Both the position numbers and the translations under genes were made by a program. Below are positions 76-30,582 of a stretch of 51,858 nt of DNA, piece by piece (position 1 is the first letter of the stretch; each line of letters starts with the position of its first letter). The notes below the pieces were generated by a model, which had not been told where the DNA came from, did no database searches, and saw only the letters and a program-made list of their open reading frames with translations. Location of the stretch: positions 1 to 51,858 of the forward strand of contig JBCCWF010000002.1 of assembly GCA_039194035.1 (NCBI GenBank), read 5' to 3'. Source of the stretch: Cyanobacteria bacterium P01_E01_bin.6. GTDB taxonomy: Bacteria > Cyanobacteriota > Cyanobacteriia > CAKZMO01.

Positions 76-1494
76 GTGCTAGTCTATTTTGCGTGTCACC
101 GCGTTAGAAACCCGGAGGGAAAGCCAATGCTGATCGCTGCTGACACTCGAAAGAAACGGTTGGAAGAATCGGGCATTTCTATTCTTGATGATTTAGAGCC
201 ATTAATTCGGAACAGTCGAGCCCAACAGAAGGTGCTAATGTTGGATGCGTGTTTTATGGGACAGGGCCGAGGCCAGCAAGATCCCACAGAGTTCCTGAAG
301 AAGGTCAATGAACTTGCTAGTGGGTTTGAGGTTATTAGTGCTAGCAGCGAAGACCAAGAAGCCTTGGAGTCGTCAGGTCTAAACCATAGTATTTTTTGCC
401 ACTTTGTTCTCAAAGGATTGGCAGGTGAAGCTGAGATGGGCCAGAAGGTTGTGATGCTAAGTGCTCTTAAGCGTTATGTAATGGCAGAAATTGCCGAATA
501 TACTGTACGTCTGAGTATCGAACAATCTCCGCAAGGACGTTCTGACGGGAATCTTGGGGATTTCATGCTAGTAGATTACACCGCTCATTCTCTACCTAGT
601 CTTGAAAGTCTAAGCATTCCTGATATACAGCAGGTTTCTCCTCAAGATTTTCAAGCACGCAGTGAGACAAACGAACCCAAGTCGATTGGTACTAGGTTAA
701 TTGAATCGTTATGGACTCTAGACTATACCAATCAGGTTCAACTTTTTGAGTCACGTATTCCTAGAATGCGAAGGGGTGCAGTCGTTGCAGTACGAGCAGA
801 GAATGAATTGTTGCAATCATGGTTAACAAAGCGTTTATTGAAGAAACTCCCCATTCCAGTAAACAATTTTGTTGATGCCTGTGCTGTCATATCAGCGAGT
901 GATGTTTTGGATAATTTTGAGACATTCTGGGACGGGTTAGGTAAACACTTCAAGGTCAATACATCACTTAGATCGGTTGATAGAGATGCTTCTCAAATGA
1001 TCATCGAGACAATTATTAAAAAATATCAATCGGAAAACATCATTATTGTGATCAAAAATTGGCCTCGACGGTCCGGTCTACGCAAGAGAGTGCCAGAGTT
1101 ACTCTGTAGAATTCTGAATGATTTTTGGTATCCGTTGCAGACTGAAATGCGAGCTCAAAAAGTCGCGCCACTTCGCCAGCGGTTGGTTTTGTGTTTGATG
1201 GATGCTGGAAGAAAAACAAACAACTTACAGTCTCTGAAAAATGAAAACCCTAATTTAGTAGACCTTATTGATCTATCTCCTCTTAATATTACGAGTGATG
1301 AACTTACACAATGGGTCATAAGCAATCAATGGTTGCCAGACATCCGAAAAGACGACGATTATGTTGATGAGTTTTTAAAAGACCTCAGCGAGCCTGGGAT
1401 GCTAGAGAATGCTGAGGAGGTGATTAATGACATTTGTGATTTGTTCAAAGTAAATCTGGTGGATATTGAGGCAGAGTGGAGGTGGGCAGGATGA
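76..1494 (+). CDS. Caspase-like (peptidase C14/metacaspase-type) protein with ~300 aa C-terminal region of unknown function; N-terminal part of protease fold cut off by an in-frame TAA at 40-42
   Basis: The His strand LVYFACHR and Cys strand VLMLDACFMGQG match the caspase His-Cys dyad context (YFxGHG ... LDxCxSG). The stop overlaps the next start (ATGA at 1491-1494). Confidence 0.6.
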   Translation: MLVYFACHRVRNPEGKPMLIAADTRKKRLEESGISILDDLEPLIRNSRAQQKVLMLDACFMGQGRGQQDPTEFLKKVNELASGFEVISASSEDQEALESSGLNHSIFCHFVLKGLAGEAEMGQKVVMLSALKRYVMAEIAEYTVRLSIEQSPQGRSDGNLGDFMLVDYTAHSLPSLESLSIPDIQQVSPQDFQARSETNEPKSIGTRLIESLWTLDYTNQVQLFESRIPRMRRGAVVAVRAENELLQSWLTKRLLKKLPIPVNNFVDACAVISASDVLDNFETFWDGLGKHFKVNTSLRSVDRDASQMIIETIIKKYQSENIIIVIKNWPRRSGLRKRVPELLCRILNDFWYPLQTEMRAQKVAPLRQRLVLCLMDAGRKTNNLQSLKNENPNLVDLIDLSPLNITSDELTQWVISNQWLPDIRKDDDYVDEFLKDLSEPGMLENAEEVINDICDLFKVNLVDIEAEWRWAG

Positions 1495-2585
1495 CACAAG
1501 AAATTGATTACACCTACACCGGGGACTATCGGCCTCCCTTTGAAGATGGTAAAGAACCGCTGCGTGACCATAAAGGACGGGAGTATTTTCCATATCTGCC
1601 AGAGCCTGGGCTTAAAAAAGCGCTGAACTTGGCCATTGCCCTACAGCGTCCACTCCTCTTGGAAGGAGAGCCAGGATGTGGGAAAACCCGCCTTGCCGCT
1701 TCACTCGTGTATGAACTCACCTGCAAGCAGTTGGAAGGAAACCCTCCTGATTCCAAAACAAACGCAGAAGACTGGTGGAATTTTTATATTTGGAACGTTA
1801 CATCTACCAGTCGTGCTCAAGATGGGCTGTATACCTTTGATGCCGTTGGACGACTACGGGACGCACAGCTCATGGGGACCGATCCCGTTCGCCTGCAGCA
1901 ATATATGGGTAAGCTTGAAGCCGCAGCCTTGAAAAAACGGATGCAGGACAAGACCAAGTATCTAGATTTTGGTCCCTTGGGGCTTGCCCTAAAGGATCAA
2001 ACCCATCGTCCGGTGGTGCTTATTGATGAAATTGATAAAGCAGACAGTGACTTCCCGAATGATCTGCTGCTGCAATTAGACGAATTGCGATTTGATATTC
2101 CTGAACTAGGGGAAGGTGAAACGGTTCAGCCTCCAGAAGCCCGCAATAAACCGATTATTTTAATTACGAGTAATCGAGAAAAACCCCTATCTGAGGCGTT
2201 TTTGCGACGATGTCTTTACTACTATGTGCCGTTTCCAGGTGACGAGACGTTGCGGGAGATTATTAAGGCCCGATTTGGCGAAAAGTATATAGACAAAAAA
2301 GCAGTTGTCGATCGGGCTCTAGATAAATTCAATGACGTGTATCAGTTACTGAAGAATCAACCCGGTAGTCGTCCGCCTGGGACGAGTGAGGTTCTGGAGT
2401 TTGTGACAGCATTACTACAACACCAGCAGACAGACGACGACACGTTAACTGAGCTGGATAACTTATCCGGTGAATTACATTTACTAGGAACGCTGATTAA
2501 AACAAGCGCGGATCAAGAACGCTATATCGCGACATATCCACCTAAAGAGAAGGCCGACAATGAGGTGAGTGCATCAGATGGCTGA
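1491..2585 (+). CDS. MoxR-like AAA+ ATPase
   Basis: Walker A is LLLEGEPGCGKTRLA and Walker B is VVLIDEIDKAD, followed by ILITSNREKPLSEAFLRRC (sensor/Arg region). ATG 1491 is preceded by GGAGG at 1479-1483. The ORF-track start at 1476 is a GTG further upstream. Confidence 0.8.
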   Translation: MTQEIDYTYTGDYRPPFEDGKEPLRDHKGREYFPYLPEPGLKKALNLAIALQRPLLLEGEPGCGKTRLAASLVYELTCKQLEGNPPDSKTNAEDWWNFYIWNVTSTSRAQDGLYTFDAVGRLRDAQLMGTDPVRLQQYMGKLEAAALKKRMQDKTKYLDFGPLGLALKDQTHRPVVLIDEIDKADSDFPNDLLLQLDELRFDIPELGEGETVQPPEARNKPIILITSNREKPLSEAFLRRCLYYYVPFPGDETLREIIKARFGEKYIDKKAVVDRALDKFNDVYQLLKNQPGSRPPGTSEVLEFVTALLQHQQTDDDTLTELDNLSGELHLLGTLIKTSADQERYIATYPPKEKADNEVSASDG

Positions 2586-3696
2586 GCTATCATTTCCTTT
2601 TTTGGACTTATTTCAACAGCTTCAGGGGGCGGGGATGAAGCTATCACCGGAGCAGTATGATTTGTTGCGGCAGGCTATCGGCAAAGGGTTTGGGCAGGAA
2701 GACTGGAAGTGGGATGAGTTGCGGCAGGTCTGTCGAGTGTTGTGGGTAAAGCCTAGTCGGAACTATGACGGACAAACCTTTGAGCAAGTGTTTGATCAGT
2801 ATGTGCGGCAAAAGCAGGAGGAGATTCGAGCACAACTGACCGTCACTCAGCCGGAAGCGAAAACGGCACCTCCTAAACCAGCTCAGCCAATGCGACAGTG
2901 GCCTAGGGTGCCACCGCGCAAAAAGTCGGTGAGTCAGCCAGAGGCAACGACGGCAGAGGAAAAGGTACCCACCGCATTCAAAACGGGGGTGGAGGGCTTG
3001 CCTCAGATGGATGATCCTCGATTTAAGGTGACGCCCAGACAGATGCCGCTGCCCCAGCGCACTATTTTGGATAGCTGGCAGCTTTTGCGTCGTCCGCTGC
3101 GGGAAGGCATTCGCACTGAATTGGATTTGCCAGCAACGATCCGCTGCATTTCCCAGGTAGGCTATTTTAGCGACGTGGTGATGCGTCCGGTGAAGAATAA
3201 ACGGGCGGAGCTGATTGTGTTAGTGGATGATGGCAATGTGATGTTGCCGTATCAGCCTGCGTTGCAGCCGCTGGTTCGTGCCATTGAAACTCAGCAAATT
3301 ACTCCTGCTAAGTTGTATCGGTTTACTACTTACCCGGATGAGTATCTCTATGATTGGGTTCAGCCCTCCCATGCGATTCCGCTGGACCAGGTGCTGGCGC
3401 AGATGCATGCACGGCGGACGATTGTGCTGGTGTGGGGCGATGCAGGAGTCACTCAAACCAATCCGGCGGATGCCCATCGTAAGGGCTTGCTCGATTTTTT
3501 GAATCGGTTGTGTCCCTGCGTGCGGTCTTTGATTTGGTTAAACCCATTGCCTCCCTATCGCTGGACTGGAACGTTGGCGGAGGAGGTGGCCTATTGGTTG
3601 GATGGGCGTATGACCCATTTGAATGTGTTCCAGGTGTTGACATTGGCGAAAAAGCCAGCAGGAAATGATCGCATATTTTTGAGATCGCCTGGGTAG
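2578..3696 (+). CDS. vWA-like partner protein of the MoxR ATPase (tentative)
   Basis: The gene overlaps the MoxR gene by 8 nt (ATG 2578, MoxR stop 2583-2585). Strand-like motifs ELIVLVDDGNVM and RTIVLVWGDAG are consistent with a vWA/CoxE-type fold. A canonical DxSxS MIDAS motif is not evident. The MoxR-vWA pairing is a well-known gene neighbourhood. Confidence 0.45.
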   Translation: MAELSFPFLDLFQQLQGAGMKLSPEQYDLLRQAIGKGFGQEDWKWDELRQVCRVLWVKPSRNYDGQTFEQVFDQYVRQKQEEIRAQLTVTQPEAKTAPPKPAQPMRQWPRVPPRKKSVSQPEATTAEEKVPTAFKTGVEGLPQMDDPRFKVTPRQMPLPQRTILDSWQLLRRPLREGIRTELDLPATIRCISQVGYFSDVVMRPVKNKRAELIVLVDDGNVMLPYQPALQPLVRAIETQQITPAKLYRFTTYPDEYLYDWVQPSHAIPLDQVLAQMHARRTIVLVWGDAGVTQTNPADAHRKGLLDFLNRLCPCVRSLIWLNPLPPYRWTGTLAEEVAYWLDGRMTHLNVFQVLTLAKKPAGNDRIFLRSPG

Positions 3697-3707: not shown

Positions 3708-5282
3708 ATGGGACCCTCGGCACGAGAGAGACGACAAGAAAGACGGCTGCGGCGAGACCCAACCGAACGGCGGATACGAGTGTTTGAGCAGCGCTATGGC
3801 CGGATGGCAACGAATTTGGCAGCCCATGCGGCGTTTCCGCTGACGCTGACGACGGATGTGATCTATTGTTTGCGGGAATCGTTTTTACCGGATTGTCCCT
3901 GGTATGCAGCGGCGGATGTGTTGCTGTCAGGATTGTGTACTCCGGTGGGCTATGACTTGTATGAGATGGAAGCGGCAACTCGTCGCTACCTGTTGCGGTA
4001 CTTGCGGGATCAGTTTGGAGATGGGCAAGTTGAGGCGGTGGCTGACTTTATGGCGGCCTATTTACGCCATCGAGTGTTGGGGCTAAAGGATAATCGAGCC
4101 TTGATGTTGGGGGAAAAGCCCCAGTGGACGGCGTTGGCTTGTTTGCAGCCGGGGAAAGCCCGTGACGAAATCTATCAGGCGCTACAACACTTAGCCCGTC
4201 AGCAGACGTTAGACCAACAAGACCGATTTCGATTGGCTTCATTGGTGGAAAGCTATGGTGATTTTCTCGCGGACCAGGGATATCAGCATTTCATGGTGGA
4301 ATGGGCCGATAAGTTCGCCGAGGAAGAGCCGATTGATGCTCAGGCCGAGATGGTGGAGCAGCTTCAAAATGCTGGTTTCTCGGTGCGGTGGGTGGAGTTT
4401 GAGGTGGCGACGGTAGCCTTTGGGGTGGAGCAAGCCCCGATGGAAGAGAGTGAGCTATACACCGTTAATATTGAGACGGTCACGGTGAATGAGCAGGGAG
4501 AGGAAATTGCCAGAGAACCGCATACTGTCTCCTATTTTGAGGAACTGTTGGGAGACCCTATCACCCCACTGCGGCTGGTAGCAATTCCCAGTGGGGAATT
4601 TATGATGGGGTCTGGAGAAGAGGACTCTGACAAATACGGGGATGAAACACCTCAGCATTTGGTAAAAGTCAAGCCGTTTTTTATTAGCCAGTATCCTGTG
4701 ACTCAGGCCCAGTGGAAAGCTGTGGCAGCCATGCCGACGCCCACAGAAGATTTGGAGGAAGACCTCAAACCCGAGCCATCCAGATTTTCGGGTGATGAGC
4801 GCCCGGTAGAGCAGGTGTCGTGGCATGAGGCGGTGGAGTTTTGTGCTCGGTTGTCGAAGCATACAGGACGCATCTATCGGTTGCCAACGGAGGCAGAGTG
4901 GGAATATGCCTGTCGAGCAGATACGACCACGCCCTATTATTTTGGGCCGAAGATAACAGAAGCTTGGGTTAACTACAACGTTGGTGAAACTACTTCTGTA
5001 GGAAAATTTCCTCCTAATGCCTTTGGCCTGTATGACATGCACGGAAATGTGTGTGAATGGTGTGCCGATCACTGGCATGGCAATTATGAGGAGGACGGAG
5101 GACCACCAACAGACGGAAGTGCTTGGCTGACAGAGGATTCAGACGCTAGGCGAGTGAACCGCGGCGGCTCCTGGTACCCCTATCCAAGGCTTTGCCGTTC
5201 CGCGTGTCGCGACGATGACCTCCCCGGCGACCACTACGACGATATTGGTTTTCGAGTTGTATGCGAGGCCCGAGGACTCTGA
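3708..5282 (+). CDS. DGR target protein 1: N-terminal domain of unknown function plus C-terminal FGE-sulfatase (SUMF1-like, C-type-lectin fold) domain carrying VR1
   Basis: FGE-sulfatase motifs are present: LVAIPSGEFMMGS, YPVTQAQW, VSWHEAVEFCARLS, YRLPTEAEWEYACRA, GLYDMHGNVCEWCADHW, RGGSW, IGFRVV. GGGAGG lies upstream of ATG 3708. The last 41 codons equal VR1. Confidence 0.85.
   Translation: MGPSARERRQERRLRRDPTERRIRVFEQRYGRMATNLAAHAAFPLTLTTDVIYCLRESFLPDCPWYAAADVLLSGLCTPVGYDLYEMEAATRRYLLRYLRDQFGDGQVEAVADFMAAYLRHRVLGLKDNRALMLGEKPQWTALACLQPGKARDEIYQALQHLARQQTLDQQDRFRLASLVESYGDFLADQGYQHFMVEWADKFAEEEPIDAQAEMVEQLQNAGFSVRWVEFEVATVAFGVEQAPMEESELYTVNIETVTVNEQGEEIAREPHTVSYFEELLGDPITPLRLVAIPSGEFMMGSGEEDSDKYGDETPQHLVKVKPFFISQYPVTQAQWKAVAAMPTPTEDLEEDLKPEPSRFSGDERPVEQVSWHEAVEFCARLSKHTGRIYRLPTEAEWEYACRADTTTPYYFGPKITEAWVNYNVGETTSVGKFPPNAFGLYDMHGNVCEWCADHWHGNYEEDGGPPTDGSAWLTEDSDARRVNRGGSWYPYPRLCRSACRDDDLPGDHYDDIGFRVVCEARGL
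5157..5280 (+). repeat. DGR variable repeat VR1 (124 nt)
   Basis: Hand alignment to TR 6894-7017 gives 15 differences, all at TR adenines, plus one non-A difference at the 3' end (G 5275 vs C 7012). Confidence 0.9.
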
Positions 5283-5319
5283 GTATCTCTCTTTTCTTTT
5301 TCCCTCTTTCCCTCTTCTT

Positions 5320-5334
5320 TCGCGCTTCGCGCGA
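5320..5334 (+). promoter_or_regulatory. GC hairpin downstream of VR1 (TCGCGC-TTC-GCGCGA), candidate DGR retrohoming hairpin/cruciform
   Basis: It has a 6-bp perfect stem and a 3-nt loop. An equivalent hairpin sits at the same offset after VR2 (9133-9147). Confidence 0.55.
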
Positions 5335-5427
5335 TCAAAATTTTTTCAGAGTTTCCTTATCACACTCCACTTGATTATTGATGCTGAATCTTTGGTAGAG
5401 TTGGAACCCACAAAATTTCAGAGTGCT

Positions 5428-5772
5428 ATGAACGAAGAACTACCGATTATCCAGAAAACCTATGACCTGATTAAATGGGCCGTTCCGATTATTGATCGAC
5501 TGCCCCGCAGCCATCGCTTTACCTTGGGCGATCGCATTGTGAATGAACTCTACAACTTGCTCGATCAACTGATCACAGTCCGATATGCCCGATCTGGGAA
5601 ACTGACAGCCCTACAGGCATTGAATACTCGGCTCCAGGTGTTGCGCTACCAGTGTCGGCTATTGCTGGATCTTGAGCTGATTTCGGTAAAACGCTACGAG
5701 TTTATGCATCGACAAATCAATGGAATTGGCATGGAGCTGGGAGGCTGGATTAAGCAGCAAACCCCCTCATGA
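5428..5772 (+). CDS. avd: DGR accessory variability determinant (Avd; four-helix-bundle / 23S rRNA IVS-like protein)
   Basis: The 114-aa product [37 protein letters not shown]... resembles the four-helix-bundle family. Its stop overlaps the RT start (ATGA at 5769-5772). The ORF-track start at 5215 reads through VR1 and is rejected. Confidence 0.8.
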
Positions 5773-6854
5773 AACGCTACGGATATCTCTGGTCTCAGGT
5801 CACTGATTTTCAAAATTTGTGGCAAGCGGCCAGGCAAGCTCAGCGCAGTAAACGCTATCGGCCCGGCGTCTTAGCCTTTAACCATGAGCTAGAGCAAAAC
5901 TTGCTGCAATTGCAAGAGGAGTTGCACGCTAAAACCTATCAGCCGGGCGACTATCACACCTTTGAAATCACCGACCCTAAACCTCGGCTGATTTCGGCAG
6001 CTCCTTACCGAGACCGAGTGGTGCATCATGCCTTGTGCAATGTGATTATGCCCCTGATAGAGCGATCCTTTATTGACGACTCCTATGCCAATCAAGTCGG
6101 GAAGGGAACCCATCGGGCACTGAAACGGGCAATCCACTTCATTCGTTCGAGTGATTATGTCTTGCAATGTGATCTCCAAAAATATTTTCCAAGTATTGAT
6201 CACACGATTCTCAAACGACAGCTCCGACACTGGCTGAAGTGTCCGGATACCTTATGGCTGATCGACACCATTATCAACAACAGCAATGACCAGCCCCGAG
6301 AACTGACTTATTTTCCTGGCGACACCTTGCTGACTCCTCTAGAACGCCGCGCTGGATTACCCATTGGTAATTTGACCAGTCAGTTTTTTGCCAATGTCTA
6401 TCTGAATGGGCTCGATCATTTTGTTAAAGAAACGCTGCACATTGGCAGATACCTGAGGTATGTAGATGATTTTTTGCTATTCAGCAACGACCCCTACCAG
6501 CTCAGCGATGCTCGGCAGGCCATTGAAGACCATGTGACGGGGTTACGATTGCGACTGCATCCCGCCAAAACTCAACTGTTTGAAACCCAACATGGCGTTA
6601 ATTTCGTGGGATTCCGGATGATTCCAGAGGATCGGATGTGCCCCCGCGAGGTTGTCGTGAGGGTACGAAACGACAATTTACAGCGTGCCCGGAGACGATG
6701 TAAACAGTTACAACGTGAGTATGCAAACGGCACCATTGGGTTGAAGCCTCTGGTACAGCGACTACAGAGTTGGGAAGCTCACCTCAAGCATGGCGATACC
6801 CATCGGTTACGGCGGCGGATTTTTGATGAGTTGGTGTTTCGGCACGATGAGTGA
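5769..6854 (+). CDS. DGR reverse transcriptase
   Basis: RT motifs are present: [24 protein letters not shown], the DGR-typical [17 protein letters not shown], and YVDD in [10 protein letters not shown]. It is flanked by avd and TR. Confidence 0.9.
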
Positions 6855-6893: not shown

Positions 6894-7017
6894 AAACGCG
6901 GCGGCTCCTGGAACAACAATCCAAGGAATTGCCGTTCCGCGTGTCGCAACAATAACAACCCCGGCGACCACAACAACAATATTGGTTTTCGAGTTGTATG
7001 CGAGGCCCGAGCACTCT
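6894..7017 (+). repeat. DGR template repeat (TR), non-coding template RNA region
   Basis: The 124-nt segment starts 40 nt after the RT stop. It contains 11 AAY codons in the VR reading frame (KRGGSWNNNPRNCRSACRNNNNPGDHNNNIGFRVVCEARAL). It is homologous to VR1 and VR2, with differences only at A positions. Confidence 0.9.
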
Positions 7018-7364
7018 TCAGTGAGTGGTGCTGTCAATACGACCGGATCACAGTGCCAGAGTTGATAGGTGGGAATCTATCAAGCGTGCCCCGTGAAGAG
7101 TCCAGACCTGGTCCAGTGATGCACCCGCATCCAAAAAGCAACCAGAGCCAGAGGGCTTAGTAGGTTTTTCTCGAACCGTCGTCTGGCTCATCCTAAAAGC
7201 AGGTATATGACGTATTAATTTAGCAATATTTATTATAGAAACGCTGATCTACTTGAAAAATGAAGCGGCAGAACCGTAGCCTGATAGGTTCACTCGAACA
7301 CTAACGGGTAACACACAACTTTCTTCTTCTGGTTCTACTTTCGGTTCTATTTGGGAAACGGCTA

Positions 7365-9092
7365 ATGACATCCTCATCTCCCAGTTTTAATCAATCTTCC
7401 TTTAATGCTTCAAAGCAGGATTCTCAGATAACCCTTAATGCCGTTATTGTCACTTCCCTAGCCGTTGAATCTCAAGCCGTTCGTTCATTTTTAACCAATG
7501 TTCACGAGGTCACTCATCCTACTGGAACCGTTTATGAGCGGGGTATCTTTGAGGCAGACTCATACACATGGGATGTTTACATTGTCGAAATCGAGCTAGG
7601 TAATATTATTGACGCAGCGGAAATAGAGCGTTCTCTTTCAGTGTCCAAGCCCCACGTCATCCTATTCGTAGGTCTTGCTATTGGTATCAGAAACGTCAAG
7701 ATTGGAGATGTAGTAGTCGCACCAAAGATCTATCGCTATATATTAGATACACGATCAGAAGAACCTGAATTGCGTCCTCCGCTTGGTGCAGAATCTCATG
7801 TGTTGTCAGAATATGCCAAAGCGGAAGCACAAAAAAATGAATGGTTGTCTCGATTACCAAAACCGACTGCTCCTCCCCCAGATGTCATTATTGCGCCGCT
7901 CGTTTCTAGCGAAAAAGTTGTGGCTTCGATGCAGGATCAGAACTATGAGTTTTTACGATCTCATTTTAATGACGCAGTAGCTGTAGATCTAGAAGGATAT
8001 AAATTTCTGGAGAAGATTCCTTCTATCTTTCCCTTTGTCATGGTCATTCGGGGGATTTCTGATCTCATTGATGACGTTGAGCTTAGCCAATACTACCCTG
8101 AGGGGTTAAGTAAAGAAATAGCAGCTCGACATGCTAGTGCTTTTGCAATTCACATACTCTCTAAGTTTGCTAATAGTAAGGATGAACCAGATTTTCAGGC
8201 TGAGTTTGGTGAGCAACAAGATACAGTTGAGACGTTTGGAGTTATTCAACAGTCTCAGCGATCGCAATGCTTTACCGACCCTGAGATTCACGCCAAACTT
8301 GGAATTCAGATTGATCTGATGTTGATTCCCAGAGGCACCTTTGTAATGGGGTCTCCAGAGAATGAACTCGGTCGATATGATGATGAAGATTCACTCCATG
8401 AGGTGACCGTCTCACCCTTTTTGATGGGGCGCTATCCGGTAACGCAAGCCCAATGGAGGGCGGTGGCCAACCGAGAAGACCTGAAAGTTGAGCAAGACCT
8501 TGATCCTGACCCCAGCAAAGTTAAGGGGGAAGATCATCCAGTTGAACGGGTGTCCTGGTATGAAGCGATGGAGTTTTGTCAACGGCTTTCAAGGTTAACG
8601 GGCCACCACTACCGCTTACCTACTGAAGCCGAATGGGAATATGCCTGCCGAGCCGGGACAACAACTCCGTTTCATTTTGGAGAGACCATCACCACTAATT
8701 TGGCGAACTATCGGGGAACTGATAATGAAAGTGAGCCTGAAAACTATCCTGGCAACTATGGAGATGGCCCCAAAGGTGACTATCGGGAAACAACGACTCC
8801 AGTCAATCAGTTTCATCCTCTGGCGAATGCATTTGGCCTATGCGATATGCATGGCAATGTATGGGAGTGGTGTGCCGATCACTGGCATCGCAATTATGAG
8901 GATGATGGGGGTGCGCCAATCGATGGGAATGCTTGGTTGACAGAGGATTCAGATGCTAGTCGAGTGCTACGCGGCGGCTCCTGGTACGACAATCCAAGGG
9001 ATTGCCGTTCCGCGTGTCGCAACGGTCTCAACCCCGGCGACCGCAGCTTCGATATTGGTTTTCGAGTTGTATGCGAGGCCCGAGGACTCTGA
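7365..9092 (+). CDS. DGR target protein 2: N-terminal nucleoside phosphorylase-like (PNP_UDP-type) domain fused to C-terminal FGE-sulfatase/C-type-lectin-fold domain carrying VR2
   Basis: The N-terminus has LNAVIVTSLAVESQAV, HVILFVGLAIGI, GDVVVAPKIYRY, AVAVDLEGYKF and VIRGISDLIDD, matching the phosphorylase-superfamily pattern (GIAGG, GDVVV, EMEG, RGISD) with substitutions. The C-terminus has LIPRGTFVMGS, YPVTQAQW, YRLPTEAEWEYACRAG, HGNVWEWCADHW, RGGSW and IGFRVV. Confidence 0.8.
   Translation: MTSSSPSFNQSSFNASKQDSQITLNAVIVTSLAVESQAVRSFLTNVHEVTHPTGTVYERGIFEADSYTWDVYIVEIELGNIIDAAEIERSLSVSKPHVILFVGLAIGIRNVKIGDVVVAPKIYRYILDTRSEEPELRPPLGAESHVLSEYAKAEAQKNEWLSRLPKPTAPPPDVIIAPLVSSEKVVASMQDQNYEFLRSHFNDAVAVDLEGYKFLEKIPSIFPFVMVIRGISDLIDDVELSQYYPEGLSKEIAARHASAFAIHILSKFANSKDEPDFQAEFGEQQDTVETFGVIQQSQRSQCFTDPEIHAKLGIQIDLMLIPRGTFVMGSPENELGRYDDEDSLHEVTVSPFLMGRYPVTQAQWRAVANREDLKVEQDLDPDPSKVKGEDHPVERVSWYEAMEFCQRLSRLTGHHYRLPTEAEWEYACRAGTTTPFHFGETITTNLANYRGTDNESEPENYPGNYGDGPKGDYRETTTPVNQFHPLANAFGLCDMHGNVWEWCADHWHRNYEDDGGAPIDGNAWLTEDSDASRVLRGGSWYDNPRDCRSACRNGLNPGDRSFDIGFRVVCEARGL
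8967..9090 (+). repeat. DGR variable repeat VR2 (124 nt)
   Basis: Hand alignment to TR gives 14 differences, all at TR adenines, plus the same single 3' non-A difference (G 9085 vs C 7012). It differs from VR1 at many of the same codons. Confidence 0.9.
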
Positions 9093-9132: not shown

Positions 9133-9147
9133 TCGCGCTTTGCGCGA
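9133..9147 (+). promoter_or_regulatory. GC hairpin downstream of VR2 (TCGCGC-TTT-GCGCGA)
   Basis: It has a 6-bp perfect stem and a 3-nt loop, and is paralogous to 5320-5334. Confidence 0.55.
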
Positions 9148-10038: not shown

Positions 10039-10053
10039 CCGTTATTTCCTATT

Positions 10054-11172: not shown

Positions 11173-11179
11173 ATTATCC

Positions 11180-11680: not shown

Positions 11681-14203
11681 ATGTTATCCATTTCAAAAAT
11701 GGGGAAGGGAAGTGCCCTTTATTATGCGAAGCTAGCCCAAAATCAAGGAGAATTTGATGCATCACAACCGGGTGAGCCACCAGGCGAATGGTTGGGGCGG
11801 GGGGCTGCAACCCTTGGATTGACAGGCACTGTAAATCAAGCAGATTTTCTCGCACTGTTTGATGGCTTTTCAACGGATGGGCAAGCATTTCTAGCCAATG
11901 CAGGTCGAGACAATCATGTGCCGGGATGGGACTTGACGTTTTCATCAGTGAAGTCTGTGGGTGGTCTGTTGTGGGCAGTAGCTCCTGCTCATATCAAGGC
12001 AACACTTGAGTCCTGTCATCATCGGGCAGTGAAGAGGGCGATCGCCTATCTCGAAGAACAGGCGGTTAATCGAAATGGAGAGCAATGCAATTTAGTGATT
12101 GCAGCGTTTCAACATGGAAGTAACCGCAATCTCGATCCAGGGCTGCATACCCACTGTCTAGTGCTGAATCTCGCCGTAGGGCAGATGGCTGGAGAGAAAC
12201 CTCGCCCTCTTTACTCAAAACATCTCTACAAACACAAGCGAGCCGCTGGAGCACTCTACCGCAGTGAGTTTTCGTATTTGCTTCAACAGGAGTTGGGACT
12301 CTCGTTAGAGCGAGTGCGCAGTTGGTTTGAGCTGAAGGGATTTTCGAGAGAACGCGGACGCTATCAGGAACTCATGAATCACTGGTCATCTCGACGACAG
12401 GAGATCGAGACGCAAGAACCTGTGAATGCCCGTCATGCTCAGTTGTTGGCCTATCAAACTCGGCAAGAAAAAGGTGTTGTCCCACCGCGCCATGAACTCT
12501 TTGCCCAGTGGCAAGATACTGCTGCGGAGTATGGATTGACCCAGCGACAGGCCATCCGCTTAGTAAAGCCTCCAAAGCAGCCCTTAACGCTCACACAAAA
12601 GTGGGCAGAATGGCGAACTATTCGAGAAGCTGCTACTGCCGTGATACGGCATCAAAGTCACTTTACCCATCGTGAATTAGTGCAGGCTGTTGCAGAAGCT
12701 TCACAAGCTCGGACGATTTCAGCAGACCGGGTAATGGAACTGACGGAATGGTATCTCACCTCTCGGTACGTGATGCGTCTCGGCATCATTGACGGACAGA
12801 AGCGCTATGCCAATAAACGACTCTATCGCTTAGAGCAGAAACTATTGAATCAAGCCCAAACCCTTAAGCAGTCGAGAGGATATCGAGTCCGGACAAAGAC
12901 AGTCACTCAGGCCGTGATGCGTCACGGCATTAGACCGGAACAGGAGCAGGCCATCGTCACGGTGACGCAACCGTCTCGACTCTCGGTCTTATCCGGTCTT
13001 ACCGGAACGGGGAAGACCCATACCGTGAAGGTGCTCCGGGACATTTACCAGGCCAACGGGCATGAGGTGTTGGGCGTAGCAGCATCCCGACGCGGGATGG
13101 AAAAGCTGCACGAGAAAACGGAACTCAGTCATCAACGCTGGTGGGAACCCTTCGTGGAACACCCCTCAGAACAAACAATGAGTGTGCATCGTTTGTTTAC
13201 TGCCTTGGATCGAGCGCAGGAAAGCCAGTGGCAATATGGCGCTCGATCAGTCGTGCGATCGCCCCTTTCGAATCGAACCGTCGTGATCGTCGATGATGCA
13301 CAGCGCATCAATACCGCCCAGATGAATCGTCTTATCACGGAAGTCAATCAGGCTGCTGCCAAACTAATTCTTTGCGGGGATTTGAAGCAGCAACAAAGTT
13401 ATGAACACCGGGGCGCATTTGCGGCTATTGCACAGCGATTTGGCCATATCCAACTTGAGCACGTGGTACGCCAGGAAGAAGAACAGGCACAAACCATAGT
13501 GCAGCAGATTTCAGAAGGAGAGTCCCAAGCAGTGGTTCGTCGATTAGTAGAACAGGGACAACTTATCTTTGTTGAACACAAAGAAGAGGCCATGCTCCAG
13601 ACCGTTCAACAATGGAAACCGCAGGGTATTCGGCACCCACGACAGCATCTGATGATTACCGAGACCCGAGAAGATGCAAAAACGTTGAATCGGTTAGCGC
13701 AACAAGCTCGGGTTGAATCCGGTGCGTTGAGTCAGGTTGCCGTTAAAGTGAGGGGAGACCATTTTTACAAGGGCGATCGCCTTTTGCTGGCCGAATCGTC
13801 TCATACCTACGGCGTAACAAAAGGAACGTTCGGAACACTGAAGCATCTGGATTCAGTCACTCGCATGGCTGTGGTGAAGCTAGACTCAGGGCAGACTCGG
13901 TTCATCAACACCCGACTGTATCGAGGGTTGGAGTTGGGATATGCAGTGACGACAACAACCGCACGGGACATTGAAGTGAATTATGCTTATGTCATGGCCC
14001 ATGGCGATGGTCGGGAGGCGGCGTTAGTTCAACTCTCGCGAGCACAGAAGCAGACTCAGGTGATTGCCTATGGTCATGGGGTTGAGCATGACCAGACGCA
14101 GAACTTAGCCGATCAACTGAAATACTCAAAGCTTCAGGAATTTGCTGTGATTGCACATGAGCGTGGGAAAGAACAGGCGCAGGAGCAGGGGCGATCGCAC
14201 TAA
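11681..14203 (+). CDS. MobF-family conjugative relaxase (TrwC/TraI-like relaxase domain plus C-terminal P-loop helicase-like domain)
   Basis: The N-terminus MLSISKMGKGSALYYAKL, WDLTFSSVKSV and the histidine motif HGSNRNLDPGLHTHCLVLN are typical of the TrwC relaxase domain. The central P-loop is LSGLTGTGKTH with VVIVDDAQ. Confidence 0.85.
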   Translation: MLSISKMGKGSALYYAKLAQNQGEFDASQPGEPPGEWLGRGAATLGLTGTVNQADFLALFDGFSTDGQAFLANAGRDNHVPGWDLTFSSVKSVGGLLWAVAPAHIKATLESCHHRAVKRAIAYLEEQAVNRNGEQCNLVIAAFQHGSNRNLDPGLHTHCLVLNLAVGQMAGEKPRPLYSKHLYKHKRAAGALYRSEFSYLLQQELGLSLERVRSWFELKGFSRERGRYQELMNHWSSRRQEIETQEPVNARHAQLLAYQTRQEKGVVPPRHELFAQWQDTAAEYGLTQRQAIRLVKPPKQPLTLTQKWAEWRTIREAATAVIRHQSHFTHRELVQAVAEASQARTISADRVMELTEWYLTSRYVMRLGIIDGQKRYANKRLYRLEQKLLNQAQTLKQSRGYRVRTKTVTQAVMRHGIRPEQEQAIVTVTQPSRLSVLSGLTGTGKTHTVKVLRDIYQANGHEVLGVAASRRGMEKLHEKTELSHQRWWEPFVEHPSEQTMSVHRLFTALDRAQESQWQYGARSVVRSPLSNRTVVIVDDAQRINTAQMNRLITEVNQAAAKLILCGDLKQQQSYEHRGAFAAIAQRFGHIQLEHVVRQEEEQAQTIVQQISEGESQAVVRRLVEQGQLIFVEHKEEAMLQTVQQWKPQGIRHPRQHLMITETREDAKTLNRLAQQARVESGALSQVAVKVRGDHFYKGDRLLLAESSHTYGVTKGTFGTLKHLDSVTRMAVVKLDSGQTRFINTRLYRGLELGYAVTTTTARDIEVNYAYVMAHGDGREAALVQLSRAQKQTQVIAYGHGVEHDQTQNLADQLKYSKLQEFAVIAHERGKEQAQEQGRSH

Positions 14204-15346: not shown

Positions 15347-17053
15347 TTACTGAAGCTGCTGTTGAATTACCTTCAAATTCCTTCGACACTGCACCGTTAA
15401 TGGATGGTCGTTGCCCAGAGAGGCTTCACGAATAGCTAGCGCCTCCTCATACAGAGATTGAGCATCTTTTGAGCGTCCTTGAAGATGATGCACCGACGCC
15501 AAATTATTGAGACAGGTCGCAACATGCGGATGCTGGTTCCCCAATAACTGTTGCTTTAATACCAGAGCCTGCTGGAAATAAGGCTGTGCATCAGCATAGC
15601 GAGTTTGCATGTAATACAGCGTCGCTAAATTATTCAGGCAAGTAGCCACATCAGGATGGTTTTCTCCCACTAGAGCCTTGGTTAGCTCTAACGCATCGCT
15701 GAATAAGGTCTCTGCTTCCTCAAACCGAGATTGGTTGTGATACACCAATCCCAGATTGTTCATACAGGTGGCAACTTCAGGATGATGGTTGCCGTGAATT
15801 TCTTGACTTATGGCTAATGCTTGCTCTAGCAAGGGTTCCGCTTCATCAAATCGGTTCTGGCTGTAATAGAGTAACCCAAGCCCATTAAGGCATGCTGCCA
15901 CATGGGGATGTCTGTCACCCACGAGCGATCGCTCCACCCTCAGAGCATCCTTAAAGCAATACTCCGCATCGGCATAGCGTCCTAGCTCACGATAGAGTGC
16001 AGCTAAATTGCTCAAGGTGAGTGCGACATCAGGGTGAGCCTCTCCAAAAATCTCCCGTCGCACATTGTAGACCGTGAGCAACGTCTGTTCTTGCTCTGGG
16101 TAACGGGCTTGAGTGTAATAAAACGCAGCTAAATTATTTAAGCTAATCAACACATGGGGGTGACGCTCTCCAAACAATTTTTTTCGCATGTTCAGTGCTG
16201 TGTTGAAGTGCTCTTCAGCCTCAGCATACCGCCCTTGTTGCTGATAAACCAATGCTAGATTGTTCAGTACTGTTGCGACATCCCCGTGCGCATCCCCTGA
16301 TAGTTGTCGGGTTTGCTCCAGGCTCTCCAAAAATAGAGCTTCAGCCTCAGCATATTGCCCCTGATCTCGATATAAAAGGGCTAGACCATTGAGGCTAACG
16401 GTAATGTGCTGATGGGGTGCATTTAATGTATGCTGTCGTAACCCTAAAGCCTTACGAAGACAGCTTTCAGCTTCCTGATATCGTCCTTGATTGTGGTATA
16501 GCACACCTAAACTATAAAGGCATGTCGCAATGTCTGGATGATGTTGTCCTAGAAGGTTTTGAGTCGTTGCTAATGCCTGTAGGAGTAATGGTTCTGCTTG
16601 AGCATATTGCCCCAGTTTTCGGTACAGTGCAGCTAGGTTAATTTGACTACTAATGACATCGGCGTGATCTGTTCCAAAGCGTTCAAGTACAGCAGCTAAA
16701 GCCGATCTCCACCACTCTTCTGCTTTTAGATAAGCGCCTTGACCCTCATGAAAATAGGCCAGCCCTAAAAAAGGGCTGAACAAATCTTCGTCCTCCAACA
16801 AGTGCAACTTTTGAGTCGCCACCATACTGAGCTGAGGAATATCAAACGCAAACTCCTCTAAATCTGTTTGATTTGGATTAGATGGAATCTCACTTGCCAT
16901 TTGAGCACAGGTTTTTGCCAGTGCCTTGTCAAGTTGGTTGGCCTGGTTGCTTGAGGAAGTCATCGAAGGAATTTTGTTATGTGAGCTATCGTCAATCGGC
17001 ACTACTGTATTTTGCATATTCTTCATCTGTGGTTTTGCCTCTGAAGAATTCAC
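15347..17053 (-). CDS. TPR-repeat protein (kinesin-light-chain type 42-aa TPRs); probably the C-terminal half of a split NB-ARC-TPR STAND protein
   Basis: There are about 10 repeats of the form NNLAxLYxxQGRYxEAExLxxxALxIxxxxLGxxHPxVAxxL. The 5' end overlaps the NB-ARC ORF by 62 nt in another frame. An alternative non-overlapping ATG is at 16963. Confidence 0.75.
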   Translation of the reverse strand: MNSSEAKPQMKNMQNTVVPIDDSSHNKIPSMTSSSNQANQLDKALAKTCAQMASEIPSNPNQTDLEEFAFDIPQLSMVATQKLHLLEDEDLFSPFLGLAYFHEGQGAYLKAEEWWRSALAAVLERFGTDHADVISSQINLAALYRKLGQYAQAEPLLLQALATTQNLLGQHHPDIATCLYSLGVLYHNQGRYQEAESCLRKALGLRQHTLNAPHQHITVSLNGLALLYRDQGQYAEAEALFLESLEQTRQLSGDAHGDVATVLNNLALVYQQQGRYAEAEEHFNTALNMRKKLFGERHPHVLISLNNLAAFYYTQARYPEQEQTLLTVYNVRREIFGEAHPDVALTLSNLAALYRELGRYADAEYCFKDALRVERSLVGDRHPHVAACLNGLGLLYYSQNRFDEAEPLLEQALAISQEIHGNHHPEVATCMNNLGLVYHNQSRFEEAETLFSDALELTKALVGENHPDVATCLNNLATLYYMQTRYADAQPYFQQALVLKQQLLGNQHPHVATCLNNLASVHHLQGRSKDAQSLYEEALAIREASLGNDHPLTVQCRRNLKVIQQQLQ

Positions 17054-21508: not shown

Positions 21509-21525
21509 ATCTTAGGAAATTCATC

Positions 21526-30120: not shown

Positions 30121-30582
30121 ATACTTACAGATACCCTTAACGAATGGTCATCTCATTCTAGCCACGACTTACTATAGGTTCCACAACTTCGAGTAGTTGC
30201 AATAGGCAAAGGGTTAGAAGACCCTAGCGCATTTGGAAGTATGAAATTGGGTCCAACCGTTTCTCTAGTCTGCGCCTTTCGCTTAACGGTTGGATATCTT
30301 GGATCCCCAAAAAACTTCTGAAAAATTTAGTGATTGAAGTCGCTTGAGGGCTATATGAGAAACTCAACTTGCTTTTCTAAAAAGTGAGGATTAGAACCAT
30401 CCCTATTACTGGACTGCTTTGATTGGTTGTGGTGACTGGCGTTTTTTTCAAATGAACAGATAGAGGAAACATTGTTAGACTTAATAAATCAGTAGGATTC
30501 TGCCCATAAGGCTCGCTGCAAGAGCTAGAATAACTTTGTCTTCTTGGCTCAGCTAGCCGCTTACACCCAGTTATTGAAGCTT

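What the first reader, a model, noticed from the sequence alone, without database searches (positions are those of the whole stretch)
7365..9092. Second DGR target fuses a nucleoside-phosphorylase-like putative effector domain to the hypervariable lectin fold
The N-terminal ~270 aa follow the PNP/UDP phosphorylase-superfamily pattern (HVILFVGLAIGI, GDVVVAPKIY, AVAVDLEGYKF, VIRGISDLIDD). The C-terminus is the FGE-sulfatase domain ending in VR2. PNP-like domains act as nucleotide-depleting effectors in several anti-phage systems (ATP nucleosidases of Detocs- and CBASS-type systems) and sit at the N-termini of many STAND/NLR proteins. A single polypeptide that joins such a domain to a DGR-diversified binding domain would be a minimal sensor-effector with programmable specificity. 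Several consensus positions are substituted (GLAIGI for GIAGG, DLEG for EMEG). The domain may therefore have altered chemistry or be a non-catalytic adaptor.
Basis: partly seen in the sequence, partly recalled or inferred. Interest (0 to 1): 0.8.

Follow-up and report, generated by a model that had tools for sequence, protein, structure and literature searches.

The report
Nucleosidase fused to hypervariable lectin receptor
This cyanobacterial gene joins a Cap17-like nucleosidase domain to a binding domain that a retroelement keeps mutating, a real sensor-plus-effector immune architecture of an already described kind, though this copy's enzyme half is unusually divergent.

Summary
ORF 7365-9092 (575 aa) has an N-terminal PNP/MTA-nucleosidase-fold domain (about residues 24-272). 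A disordered linker joins it to a C-terminal FGE-sulfatase/C-type-lectin domain (318-571). The last 122 nt are VR2 of a diversity-generating retroelement (DGR): TR 6896-7017, with 12 of 13 mismatches at template adenines.

The protein belongs to a recurrent cyanobacterial PNP-FGS family of about 27 clusters. Its PNP domain falls in the Cap17-like family of immune ATP nucleosidases. The catalytic Glu35, Glu210, Arg229 and Asp233 are kept.

The gene is not stand-alone. It is the last gene of a cassette conserved on at least three other contigs: caspase-iSTAND, MoxR, vWA, FGS target 1, Avd, RT, TR, PNP-FGS. This is a DGR-linked iSTAND ternary conflict system of the type in Kaur et al. 2020.

In this cassette clade the PNP domain evolves unusually fast. 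The window copy differs at 29 of 103 near-invariant family positions (family median 2). Four relatives have replaced a catalytic Glu or Asp, so a non-catalytic role remains possible.

I rate it a new member of a known kind, of moderate interest.

The parts
7365..9092 (+). PNP-FGS gene, second DGR variable protein (575 aa)
   Evidence: It is a single ORF. Full-length homologues cover 92-97% of it at 40-58% identity in about 27 clusters.
7434..8180 (+). PNP/MTA-nucleosidase-fold domain (residues 24-272), Cap17-like family, divergent copy
   Evidence: Fold and family assignment rest. Glu35, Glu210, Arg229 and Asp233 are retained. The domain differs from the family at 29 of 103 conserved positions.
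8181..8315 (+). Inter-domain linker (residues 273-317), partly helical then disordered
   Evidence: AlphaFold pLDDT is 56-58 for residues 281-300 and below 50 for 288-294. Length and sequence vary among homologues.
8316..9077 (+). FGE-sulfatase / C-type-lectin-fold (FGS) ligand-binding domain (residues 318-571)
   Evidence: Pfam gives E 6e-56. Foldseek matches PvdO at 2e-21 and TvpA at 4e-17. The first catalytic Cys of FGE aligns with Asp542, a DGR-variable codon.
8969..9090 (+). VR2, variable region
   Evidence: It is 89% identical to TR. Twelve mismatches are A-to-N and one is a shared C/G mismatch. Variable bases fall at codon positions 1 and 2 of residues 541-563.
9133..9147 (+). GC hairpin (6 bp, 3-nt loop) plus T-run after VR2, preceded by a polypyrimidine tract. 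It is a DGR target-recognition hairpin and/or a terminator.
   Evidence: Folding gives z = -5.75. The same element follows VR1 at 5320-5334 (D19, 63, 81).
6896..7017 (+). TR, template repeat (33 adenines)
   Evidence: (D13)
7043..7189 (+). Conserved structured RNA element 3' of TR (RT-14-like)
   Evidence: Rfam RF02921 matches full length at 31.5 bits, E 0.02, below the gathering score. The element is conserved in L006 and L007, and 4 pairs show compensatory changes.
5769..6854 (+). DGR reverse transcriptase
   Evidence: RVT_1 E 1e-22. PADLOC RT E 8e-51. It is 73-76% identical to the cassette orthologues.
5428..5772 (+). Accessory variability determinant (bAvd). The likely start is Met72 of ORF 5215..5772.
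   Evidence: bAvd E 2e-20. Orthologues are 114 aa.
3708..5282 (+). First DGR target T1 (524 aa): the C-terminal part of a SAV_2336-type N-terminal region plus an FGS domain ending in VR1 (5159-5280)
2569..3696 (+). vWA (CoxE-type) component. Together with T1 it corresponds to a split vWA-FGS protein.
   Evidence: The split is also present in L006, L007 and L069.
1476..2585 (+). MoxR-like AAA+ ATPase
   Evidence: AAA_5 E 5.5e-12. MadB-family ATPase E 7e-25.
76..1494 (+). iSTAND protein with an N-terminally truncated EACC1-type caspase domain
   Evidence: iSTAND E 4e-9. caspase_w_EACC1 E 5e-19 over profile positions 73-209 of 211. It lacks about 78 N-terminal residues relative to the L006 orthologue.

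Best explanation
The gene encodes a cytoplasmic two-domain immune-type receptor-enzyme.

**Sensor (shown).** The C-terminal lectin-fold (FGS) domain is the sensor. Its ligand-binding face, at variable codons within residues 541-563, is rewritten by the adjacent DGR. An adenine-mutagenised cDNA of TR replaces VR2.

**Output (fold and family shown, activity inferred).** The N-terminal domain is a Cap17-like member of the PNP/MTA-nucleosidase superfamily and provides the output.

**Context (shown).** The protein is the last gene of a conserved cassette. The cassette combines an iSTAND-MoxR-vWA ternary conflict system, whose own vWA-associated FGS protein carries VR1, with a single DGR that diversifies both receptors.

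**Mechanism (inferred).** A foreign ligand, such as a phage protein or glycan, binds the diversified face. This clusters or releases the PNP domain. MTAN-type active sites are completed across a dimer interface, so clustering could activate it. The active domain cleaves the N-glycosidic bond of ATP or a related adenine nucleotide. The result is growth arrest or abortive infection, or a nucleotide-derived signal.

The two receptors give the element two independently diversified specificities and two outputs, protease/ATPase-gated and nucleosidase.
For: **DGR targeting.**
- TR, VR1 and VR2 carry adenine-specific mismatches, and both VRs share the same 3' mismatch.
- Avd and RT lie beside them.
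- The same hairpin follows both VRs.
- Orthologous PNP-FGS genes in L006 and L007/L008 are also VR-bearing, with 12/17 and 14/15 mismatches at TR adenines.

**Fold.** AlphaFold gives pLDDT 88.6. Foldseek matches MTANs for the N-terminal half and PvdO, TvpA and FGE for the C-terminal half.

**Family.**
- About 27 PNP+FGS clusters occur in filamentous cyanobacteria.
- 16 of 16 family PNP domains hit the PADLOC CBASS PN-effector model, best E 1.7e-20.
- The family profile scores the Cap17 fragment at 36.6 bits against 22.0 bits for the first 150 residues of E. coli MtnN.
- The catalytic Asp mutated in Cap17 (D472, in I-S-D) and in DtcC (D353) corresponds to window Asp233.
- Glu35, Glu210 and Arg229, the equivalents of MTAN Glu12, Glu174 and Arg193, are kept.

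**Not an FGE enzyme.** FGE's first catalytic Cys aligns with a VR codon.

**Cassette conservation.** The cassette is found in the window, L006, L007/L008 and L069.

**Literature.**
- Cap17-clade PNP domains are ATP nucleosidase effectors (Rousset 2023).
- FGS is proposed as a DGR-diversified invader sensor in ternary and NTPase systems (Kaur 2020 and 2021, Dore 2024).
Against: - No activity, ligand or phenotype is known for any PNP-FGS protein.
- The window PNP domain is the weakest PADLOC match in its family (E about 1e-6).
- It differs at 29 of 103 positions that are at least 90% conserved. The changes include G106I, E126I, F134P, R150Y, G182S, E208D, M209L, G213K and K238V.
- Four of eight cassette-clade members have replaced a catalytic Glu or Asp: P0122, P0125, P0130 and L069. 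Catalysis is therefore dispensable for at least some members.
- The caspase domain of the locus's iSTAND protein is 5'-truncated, so the cassette may be partly decayed.
- The link between ligand binding and PNP activation is pure inference.
- Placement in the Cap17 clade rests on profile scores and motifs. It was not tested with a supported phylogeny, and a neighbour-joining tree was uninformative.
Confidence: 0.55

Rival explanations
1. The PNP domain is a pseudo-enzyme or adaptor. In the iSTAND-DGR cassette it no longer works as a nucleosidase. It serves as a nucleotide-binding regulatory module, an oligomerisation or adaptor surface for the ternary system, or a decoy. The caspase, MoxR and vWA components provide the real output.
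For: - The cassette-clade members are the seven most divergent of the 147 family PNP domains and the window copy, with 12-42 deviations against a family median of 2.
- Catalytic Glu210 or Asp233 is replaced in P0125 (G and E), P0122 (D to E), P0130 (D to E) and L069 (E to A).
- Within cassette orthologues the FGS half is 72-74% identical but the PNP half only 39-45%.
- Kaur 2020 notes that enzymatic domains in these systems are often predicted to be inactive.
Against: - The window copy keeps all four principal catalytic residues.
- P0121, P0123 and P0124 keep them too.
- The fold is predicted with high confidence, with pLDDT mostly 84-96.
- Fast evolution is also expected for an effector in an arms race with inhibitors.
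Confidence: 0.25
2. The PNP domain is a signal generator rather than a depleting effector. It releases a base or ribose-phosphate derivative that acts as a second messenger. Another component reads the messenger, as proposed for PNPase domains by Burroughs 2015 and Kaur 2020.
For: - Kaur 2020 predicts this role for PNPase domains.
- In about 35 of 78 genome loci and 23 of 78 metagenome loci, genes of this PNP family are paired with a conserved, uncharacterised 183-aa predicted multi-pass membrane protein, usually divergently transcribed just upstream. It could be such a reader or pore.
Against: - That membrane protein is absent from the window and from the other cassettes.
- The characterised members of the clade, Cap17 and DtcC, act by ATP depletion.
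- No nucleotide-sensor domain was found in the cassette.
Confidence: 0.12
3. The protein is a regulatory or environment-sensing signalling protein rather than an immune one. DGR-diversified lectin domains in cyanobacteria may tune signal transduction (Vallota-Eastman 2020). On this reading the PNP domain links ligand sensing to nucleoside or SAM-cycle metabolism.
For: - Vallota-Eastman 2020 argues for signalling roles.
- The best NCBIfam and PDB matches by name are housekeeping MTA/SAH nucleosidases.
Against: - The family matches defence-effector models.
- Its partner domains are TIR, SEFIR, EAD and NB-ARC.
- The locus sits on a conjugative element full of conflict genes: iSTAND, caspase, EAD4-NB-ARC-TPR, four TPR-CHAT proteins and PglZ.
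Confidence: 0.06
4. The protein is a metabolic bifunctional enzyme: an MTA/SAH nucleosidase fused to an active SUMF1/EgtB/PvdO-type oxidase. This is what the database name 'SUMF1/EgtB/PvdO family nonheme iron enzyme' suggests.
For: Source annotations of the homologues carry this name.
Against: - The position of FGE's first catalytic Cys is a DGR-variable codon, Asp542.
- There is no EgtB DinB-type domain.
- The C-terminal end is a VR with a cognate TR.
Confidence: 0.02

Closest known systems
Cap17 (type III CBASS) and DtcC (Detocs) ATP nucleosidase effectors, the 'Cap17 clade' of PNP domains (Rousset et al. 2023)
   Same: - It has the PNP/MTAN fold.
- It has the same I-S-D catalytic Asp motif.
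- It shares the Y-x-Y-E-S/T-G...F-x-P-R/E-P segment that Cap17 and DtcC also carry.
- The family matches the PADLOC CBASS PN-effector model.
- The PNP domain is fused to a sensing or regulatory domain.
   Different: - The regulatory partner is a DGR-diversified lectin domain. Cap17 uses a TPALS/SLOG domain and DtcC a receiver domain.
- The PNP domain is N-terminal rather than C-terminal.
- The window copy is highly divergent, and its activity is untested.
iSTAND-MoxR-vWA ternary conflict systems with FGS domains linked to DGRs (Kaur, Burroughs, Iyer, Aravind 2020 and 2021)
   Same: - iSTAND, MoxR AAA+, CoxE-type vWA and FGS components are all present and in order.
- A DGR (Avd, RT, TR) is embedded in the cassette.
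- The host is cyanobacterial.
- PNPase belongs to the effector vocabulary of these systems.
   Different: - The vWA and FGS parts are two ORFs here.
- An extra PNP-FGS protein follows the RT as a second target. The text of those papers does not describe this two-domain architecture.
- The caspase on the iSTAND protein is truncated in this copy.
Cyanobacterial DGR variable proteins with N-terminal signalling or effector domains such as kinase, orthocaspase, TIR, CHAT and GUN4 (Vallota-Eastman 2020; Dore 2024)
   Same: - A C-terminal CLec/FGS domain carries the VR at the extreme C-terminus.
- An N-terminal grafted domain is present.
- Several targets are served by one TR.
- It occurs in filamentous cyanobacteria.
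   Different: The N-terminal partner is a PNP nucleosidase. Those surveys do not list this partner: a text search for phosphorylase, PNP and nucleosidase gave zero hits.
Treponema denticola TvpA and Bordetella phage Mtd (classical DGR variable proteins)
   Same: It has the lectin/FGE fold and a C-terminal VR. Foldseek matches TvpA (2y3c) at E 4e-17.
   Different: Those are surface or tail-fibre adhesins with no enzymatic domain. This protein has no Pfam-detected signal or anchor domain and carries an intracellular-type effector domain. I ran no signal-peptide predictor.
5'-methylthioadenosine/S-adenosylhomocysteine nucleosidase (MtnN/Pfs)
   Same: It is the best solved structural match. Equivalents of Glu12, Glu174, Arg193 and Asp197 are conserved.
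   Different: - Identity is only about 20%.
- NCBIfam scores are far below the equivalog cut-off (42.8 against 169 bits).
- It is fused to a DGR target and sits in a conflict-system context.

Membership tests
DGR variable protein (target) | A variable region matches a template repeat, with differences confined to template adenines | tested here: met
   VR2 8969-9090 against TR 6896-7017: 12 of 13 mismatches fall at TR adenines, plus 2 more just upstream. The one non-A mismatch is shared with VR1 near the 3' end.
DGR variable protein (target) | A DGR-type reverse transcriptase and accessory protein (Avd) lie in the locus | tested here: met
   RVT_1 E 1e-22, bAvd E 2e-20. PADLOC RT E 8e-51.
DGR variable protein (target) | The VR lies in a C-type-lectin/FGE-sulfatase fold at the C-terminus | tested here: met
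   Pfam E 6e-56. Foldseek matches TvpA 2y3c at 4e-17. The VR ends 2 nt before the stop codon.
DGR variable protein (target) | Ongoing mutagenic retrohoming, seen as population-level VR variation | not testable with these tools
   Only one sequence of this locus is available. The absence of non-A mismatches suggests recent homing.
Cap17-clade immune PNP domain (ATP nucleosidase) | PNP/MTAN alpha-beta fold | tested here: met
   A family profile against the PDB gives E 1e-14 over full length. Foldseek gives 2.6e-15 and TM 0.76.
Cap17-clade immune PNP domain (ATP nucleosidase) | Catalytic Asp (Cap17 D472, DtcC D353) and the Glu residues of the MTAN-type site | tested here: met
   Asp233 lies in R-G-I-S-D. 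The Cap17 primer encodes I-S-(D>A)-F-G-D-S. Glu35, Glu210 and Arg229 are present.
Cap17-clade immune PNP domain (ATP nucleosidase) | Phylogenetic placement inside the Cap17 clade rather than the MtnN, DeoD or XapA clades | tested here: inconclusive
   16 of 16 family members hit the PADLOC CBASS PN-effector model. The family profile favours the Cap17 fragment over the first 150 residues of E. coli MtnN, 36.6 against 22.0 bits.
Cap17-clade immune PNP domain (ATP nucleosidase) | Cleaves ATP/dATP into adenine plus ribose-5'-triphosphate, and is toxic when activated | not testable with these tools
   This needs a biochemical assay.
iSTAND-MoxR-vWA ternary conflict system (Kaur 2020) | Adjacent genes for an inactive STAND protein, a MoxR AAA+ ATPase and a CoxE-type vWA protein | tested here: met
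   PF19995 E 4e-9, AAA_5 E 5.5e-12, VWA_CoxE E 1e-7, at 76-3696 in that order. The same order occurs in L006, L007 and L069.
iSTAND-MoxR-vWA ternary conflict system (Kaur 2020) | A variable effector or sensor domain (commonly FGS) fused to the C-terminus of the vWA component | tested here: inconclusive
   The FGS protein T1 follows 11 nt after the vWA stop as a separate ORF. The vWA ORF and the T1 N-terminus map to consecutive parts of one NCBIfam model, SAV_2336_NTERM. The split is conserved in the orthologous cassettes.
Formylglycine-generating enzyme / EgtB / PvdO enzymes | The catalytic Cys pair of FGE | tested here: not met
   The first Cys aligns with Asp542, a VR codon. Only the second Cys (Cys547) is present.
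Housekeeping MTA/SAH nucleosidase (MtnN) | The score reaches the equivalog cut-off of the curated model | tested here: not met
   NF004079 scores 42.8 bits against a cut-off of 169. TIGR01704 scores 16 against 73.8.

The most novel reading that the evidence does not exclude
PNP-FGS proteins are autonomous, DGR-programmable receptor-enzymes. Binding of an invader molecule to the hypermutated lectin face directly switches on a nucleosidase by ligand-induced dimerisation, with no NTPase switch. This would be a bacterial analogue of an antibody fused to its own effector. Two evolutionary trajectories follow. One is a two-gene module with a conserved, uncharacterised 183-aa membrane partner. The other is a cassette-embedded form, as in this window, whose enzyme half is under accelerated evolution. 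That acceleration could reflect an arms race with phage inhibitors or a transition to a pseudo-enzyme.
Probability: 0.25. Interest if true: 0.65.

Novelty: new member of a known kind. Interest (0 to 1): 0.4.

Why it matters
If the protein works as proposed, it is a compact test case. Specificity could be reprogrammed through TR and VR, and the output read as ATP loss or adenine release. That would let the 'DGR-diversified lectin domains are antigen sensors' hypothesis (Kaur 2021, Dore 2024) be tested in one polypeptide, without reconstituting a STAND or ternary machine.

The contrast between the well-conserved PNP domains of the stand-alone family and the fast-evolving, sometimes catalytically dead domains of the cassette clade is a natural experiment. 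It bears on whether such effectors become adaptors once they are embedded in larger systems.

The concept itself is already in the literature. The value is as a well-defined, experimentally tractable instance rather than a new principle.

Tried and rejected
- **Source of the window.** A megablast of window 1-25000 against PLSDB plasmids gave no match. An exact-protein look-up of the window protein found nothing. The genome-representative scan found no identical copy. The source organism is unidentified. It is cyanobacterial only by the taxonomy of its homologues.
- **Look-up failures.** P0130's contig was not on record. One cluster look-up was wasted because the stop codon was included in the coordinates.
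- **PNP phylogeny.** A neighbour-joining tree of 147 PNP domains did not resolve whether PNP-FGS fusions are monophyletic. The window falls at the base on a long branch. I do not rely on it.
- **Literature.** The supplement of Kaur 2020 that is held contains no PNP entries. The supplement of Rousset 2023 has no 'FGE' entry, and its Cap17 sequence is truncated. A formal Cap17-clade phylogeny was therefore not possible. No paper in the library combines DGR, nucleosidase and C-type lectin.
- **Metagenome scan.** It added no further cassette copies beyond L006 (= L137).
- **Small ORFs and unassigned regions.** Pfam, NCBIfam and PADLOC gave nothing useful for the 183-aa membrane partner. Pfam also gave nothing for the small ORFs downstream of the gene. 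The N-terminal region of T1 had no Pfam or PADLOC hit and only a weak NCBIfam SAV_2336_NTERM match over residues 5-116.
- **Rejected readings.** An active FGE/EgtB enzyme is rejected because the catalytic Cys position is a VR codon. A housekeeping MtnN is rejected because scores are far below the cut-off and the context is a conflict system.
Full report
**1. The observation**

The window has one uninterrupted ORF at 7365..9092 on the + strand (575 aa).

Pfam places an FGE-sulfatase domain at residues 318-569 (E 6e-56). Its PNP_UDP_1 match covers 28-191 at only E 0.0033, below the gathering score. Taken alone, that hit is weak. Other evidence is strong:
- The NCBIfam MTA/SAH nucleosidase model covers residues 28-267 at E 4e-11.
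- PADLOC's CBASS 'PN-superfamily' effector model matches at E 7e-6.
- A search with residues 1-298 found 299 homologues, the best at E 1e-60 and 42-49% identity. All 120 listed carry PF01048.
- A profile of the family hits solved MTA/SAH nucleosidases over their whole length at E 1e-14.
- An AlphaFold model of the full protein has mean pLDDT 88.6. Foldseek matches its N-terminal half to MTANs (4g89, E 2.6e-15, TM 0.76). It matches the C-terminal half to PvdO, to the Treponema DGR variable protein TvpA (2y3c) and to FGEs.

The two-domain description is correct and far beyond chance.

**2. The DGR**

Three copies of a 122-nt repeat are present: 5159-5280, 6896-7017 and 8969-9090 (family D13).
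- The middle copy is adenine-rich (33 A) and lies just after a reverse-transcriptase gene (5769..6854). That gene is preceded by a bAvd gene.
- VR2 differs from TR at 13 positions. Twelve are TR adenines.
- VR1 differs at 16 positions. Fifteen are TR adenines.
- The single non-adenine difference (TR C7012, G in both VRs) lies near the 3' end. This is expected for an IMH/IMH* pair.
- The variable bases fall at codon positions 1 and 2 of Asn-type codons, at residues 541-563.
- Both VRs are followed by the same polypyrimidine tract and a 6-bp GC hairpin (5320-5334 and 9133-9147).

'Second DGR target' is confirmed.

FGE's first catalytic cysteine aligns with Asp542, one of the DGR-variable codons. 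The C-terminal domain is therefore a binding scaffold, not an FGE-type enzyme.

**3. What it belongs to**

A full-length search shows the architecture recurs. About 27 protein clusters carry both PF01048 and PF03781. Around 23 of them cover 92-97% of the query at 40-58% identity. They come from Leptolyngbya, Gloeotrichia, Coleofasciculus, Aetokthonos, Calothrix and cyanobacterial MAGs, and are annotated only as 'SUMF1/EgtB/PvdO family'.

Their genomic contexts fall into two classes.

*Cassette class.* The window's closest relatives sit in the same eight-gene cassette as the window: (caspase-)iSTAND, MoxR-type AAA+, CoxE-type vWA, FGS target 1, Avd, RT, TR, PNP-FGS.
- The cassette occurs in L006, L007/L008 and L069.
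- L006 and L007/L008 have their own TR/VR pairs with adenine-biased mismatches.
- In L069 (Nodosilinea) the Avd and RT genes and most of TR have been deleted, leaving a TR remnant.

*Two-gene class.* The other members have no RT or ternary system within 10 kb. This holds for Aetokthonos, Calothrix NIES-4071, Gloeotrichia and others.
- They are instead preceded by a divergently transcribed, highly conserved 183-aa predicted multi-pass membrane protein.
- That protein accompanies genes of this PNP family in about 35 of 78 genome loci and 23 of 78 metagenome loci, usually divergently and just upstream.
- It is absent from the window.

Within the window cassette, two details link it to the canonical systems.
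- The vWA ORF and the N-terminus of target 1 match consecutive parts of one NCBIfam model, SAV_2336_NTERM. Together they correspond to the vWA-FGS fusion that Kaur et al. 2020 describe for iSTAND ternary systems.
- The iSTAND protein carries an EACC1-type caspase domain. It lacks about 78 N-terminal residues relative to its L006 orthologue.

**4. Is the PNP domain an effector of the Cap17 type, and is it active?**

*Evidence for a Cap17-type effector.*
- Partner domains of the closest PNP homologues are TIR, SEFIR, GUN4, effector-associated domains and NB-ARC. This is the vocabulary of conflict systems in multicellular bacteria.
- All 16 family PNP domains tested hit the PADLOC CBASS PN-effector model (best E 1.7e-20) and a PADLOC candidate system, PDC-M60C.
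- Sequences are given in the supplement of Rousset et al. 2023. The family profile scores the available Cap17 fragment at 36.6 bits. The first 150 residues of E. coli MtnN score 22.0 bits.
- The family shares the Y-x-Y-E-S-G...F-x-P-R-P segment with Cap17 and DtcC.
- The Cap17 D472A primer encodes I-S-(D>A)-F-G-D-S. Cap17's catalytic Asp therefore sits in the same I-S-D motif as window Asp233.
- MTAN's Glu12, Glu174 and Arg193 correspond to window Glu35, Glu210 and Arg229.

The principal catalytic residues are present.

*Evidence for divergence.*
- 103 alignment columns are at least 90% conserved among 147 family members. The median member deviates at 2 of them and the 90th percentile at 8.
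- The window deviates at 29. The changes include G106I, E126I, F134P, R150Y, G182S, E208D, M209L, G213K and K238V.
- The other cassette-clade proteins are the next most divergent, with 12-42 deviations.
- Four of eight cassette-clade members have replaced a catalytic residue. P0125 has Glu to Gly and Asp to Glu. P0122 and P0130 have Asp to Glu. L069 has Glu to Ala.
- Across cassette orthologues the FGS half is 72-74% identical, RT 73-76% and Avd 72-79%. The PNP half is only 39-45% identical.

The enzyme half evolves much faster in the cassette context than elsewhere. This fits an arms race, a changed substrate, or relaxed catalytic constraint.

**5. Mechanism**

*Shown.*
- The fold of both halves.
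- DGR targeting of the C-terminal face.
- Membership of a recurrent family.
- Embedding in a conserved iSTAND ternary plus DGR cassette on what looks like a conjugative element. That element carries a TrwC relaxase, a coupling protein, ParA, PIN and RadC. It also carries EAD4-NB-ARC-TPR and four TPR-CHAT genes.

*Inferred.*
- The hypervariable lectin face binds an invader molecule.
- Binding activates the nucleosidase, plausibly by bringing PNP domains together. MTAN-type sites are built across a dimer interface; this is established for MTAN and assumed here.
- The output is adenine-nucleotide cleavage, as in Cap17 and DtcC.

I put 0.55 on this reading and 0.25 on the pseudo-enzyme or adaptor rival. 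Smaller weights go to a signal-generating role, a non-immune signalling role and a metabolic enzyme fusion. The last of these is contradicted by the data.

**6. Comparison with what is known**

- Kaur et al. 2020 describe iSTAND-MoxR-vWA systems. FGS is their commonest variable domain, they are linked to DGRs, and in cyanobacteria FGS has at least ten different N-terminal partners. PNPase is listed among the effector domains.
- Kaur et al. 2021 explicitly propose FGS as a DGR-hypermutated invader sensor that recruits catalytic effectors.
- Vallota-Eastman 2020 and Dore 2024 catalogue multidomain DGR targets but do not mention PNP.
- Rousset 2023 shows that Cap17-clade PNP domains are ATP nucleosidases. 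It lists 'FGE-S' among the domains drawn in example cassettes of that clade, without comment in the text.

The principle and both parts are therefore published. The specific PNP-FGS DGR target, its conserved cassette, its two context classes and the accelerated evolution of its PNP half are, as far as the searchable library shows, not described.

**7. Verdict**

It is a new member of a known kind, with interest about 0.4. It is a good experimental handle on the DGR-sensor hypothesis. One caution applies: this particular copy may not be the best-behaved enzyme of its family.

Noticed in passing
L001:9407-9955 (-), L003:9109-9657 (-), L004:8505-9053 (-), L005:9288-9836 (-), and about 55 further loci. 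Not in the window.: A conserved 183-aa predicted multi-pass membrane protein (54-100% identical to the L001 copy in tblastn) accompanies genes of this PNP effector family, usually divergently and just upstream. It does so whatever C-terminal domain the PNP protein carries. It has no Pfam or PADLOC hit and only a negligible NCBIfam match (E 0.07), and is annotated 'hypothetical/integral membrane protein'. It may be a partner effector or a reader of the PNP product.
   Followed up: partly
window 7043-7189 (+): A structured, conserved non-coding element lies directly 3' of TR. It matches Rfam RT-14 RNA (RF02921) over the full model at 31.5 bits, below the gathering score of 48.1. It is conserved in L006 and L007, and four pairs show compensatory changes. 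It is probably the part of the DGR RNA needed for cDNA priming.
   Followed up: partly
window 43-1494 (+): The iSTAND gene carries an EACC1-associated-type caspase domain that starts at profile position 73 of 211. It lacks about 78 N-terminal residues relative to the L006 orthologue. An in-frame stop lies at 40-42 and AT-rich sequence lies upstream. The His (ACH) and Cys (DAC) motifs remain. The gene may be 5'-truncated, and any upstream EACC1 gene lies outside the window.
   Followed up: partly
window 2569-5282 (+): The vWA protein and DGR target 1 are separate ORFs 11 nt apart. They map to consecutive parts of one NCBIfam model (SAV_2336_NTERM), so they form a split vWA-FGS protein. The split is conserved in L006, L007 and L069.
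   Followed up: partly
L069:7605-7774: In a Nodosilinea MAG the orthologous cassette has lost Avd, RT and most of TR, leaving a TR remnant. Its PNP-FGS has Ala in place of the catalytic Glu (AVEMAG). It looks like a decaying cassette.
   Followed up: partly
window 30544-47452: Four paralogous TPR-CHAT (caspase-like) proteins are present: 30544..33894, 36419..39604, 40243..42258 and 44555..47452. Arrays of 126-nt TPR repeats cause most of the direct repeats in the window. A DDE_5 transposase lies among them at 42998..44461. The fourth ORF was inferred from repeat paralogy only.
   Followed up: no
window 15347-18602 (-): An EAD4-NB-ARC protein (16992..18602) overlaps a TPR-repeat ORF (15347..17053) on the minus strand. 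This is probably one STAND/NLR-like gene, or a split one.
   Followed up: no
window 10499-29765: Conjugative-element genes surround the cassette: DUF2958, TrwC relaxase-helicase (11681..14203), a PIN toxin, ParA-like, a TrwB/TraD coupling protein (21316..23400), a pentapeptide-repeat protein, RadC and a PglZ-domain protein. The cassette is likely carried on a plasmid or ICE. There is no PLSDB match.
   Followed up: partly
L004:1-544 and 10001-11767: Gloeotrichia echinulata carries two PNP-FGS paralogues about 10 kb apart. Their C-terminal 150 nt are 86% identical, with differences of all base types. This would fit two remote targets diversified from a TR located elsewhere in the genome.
   Followed up: no
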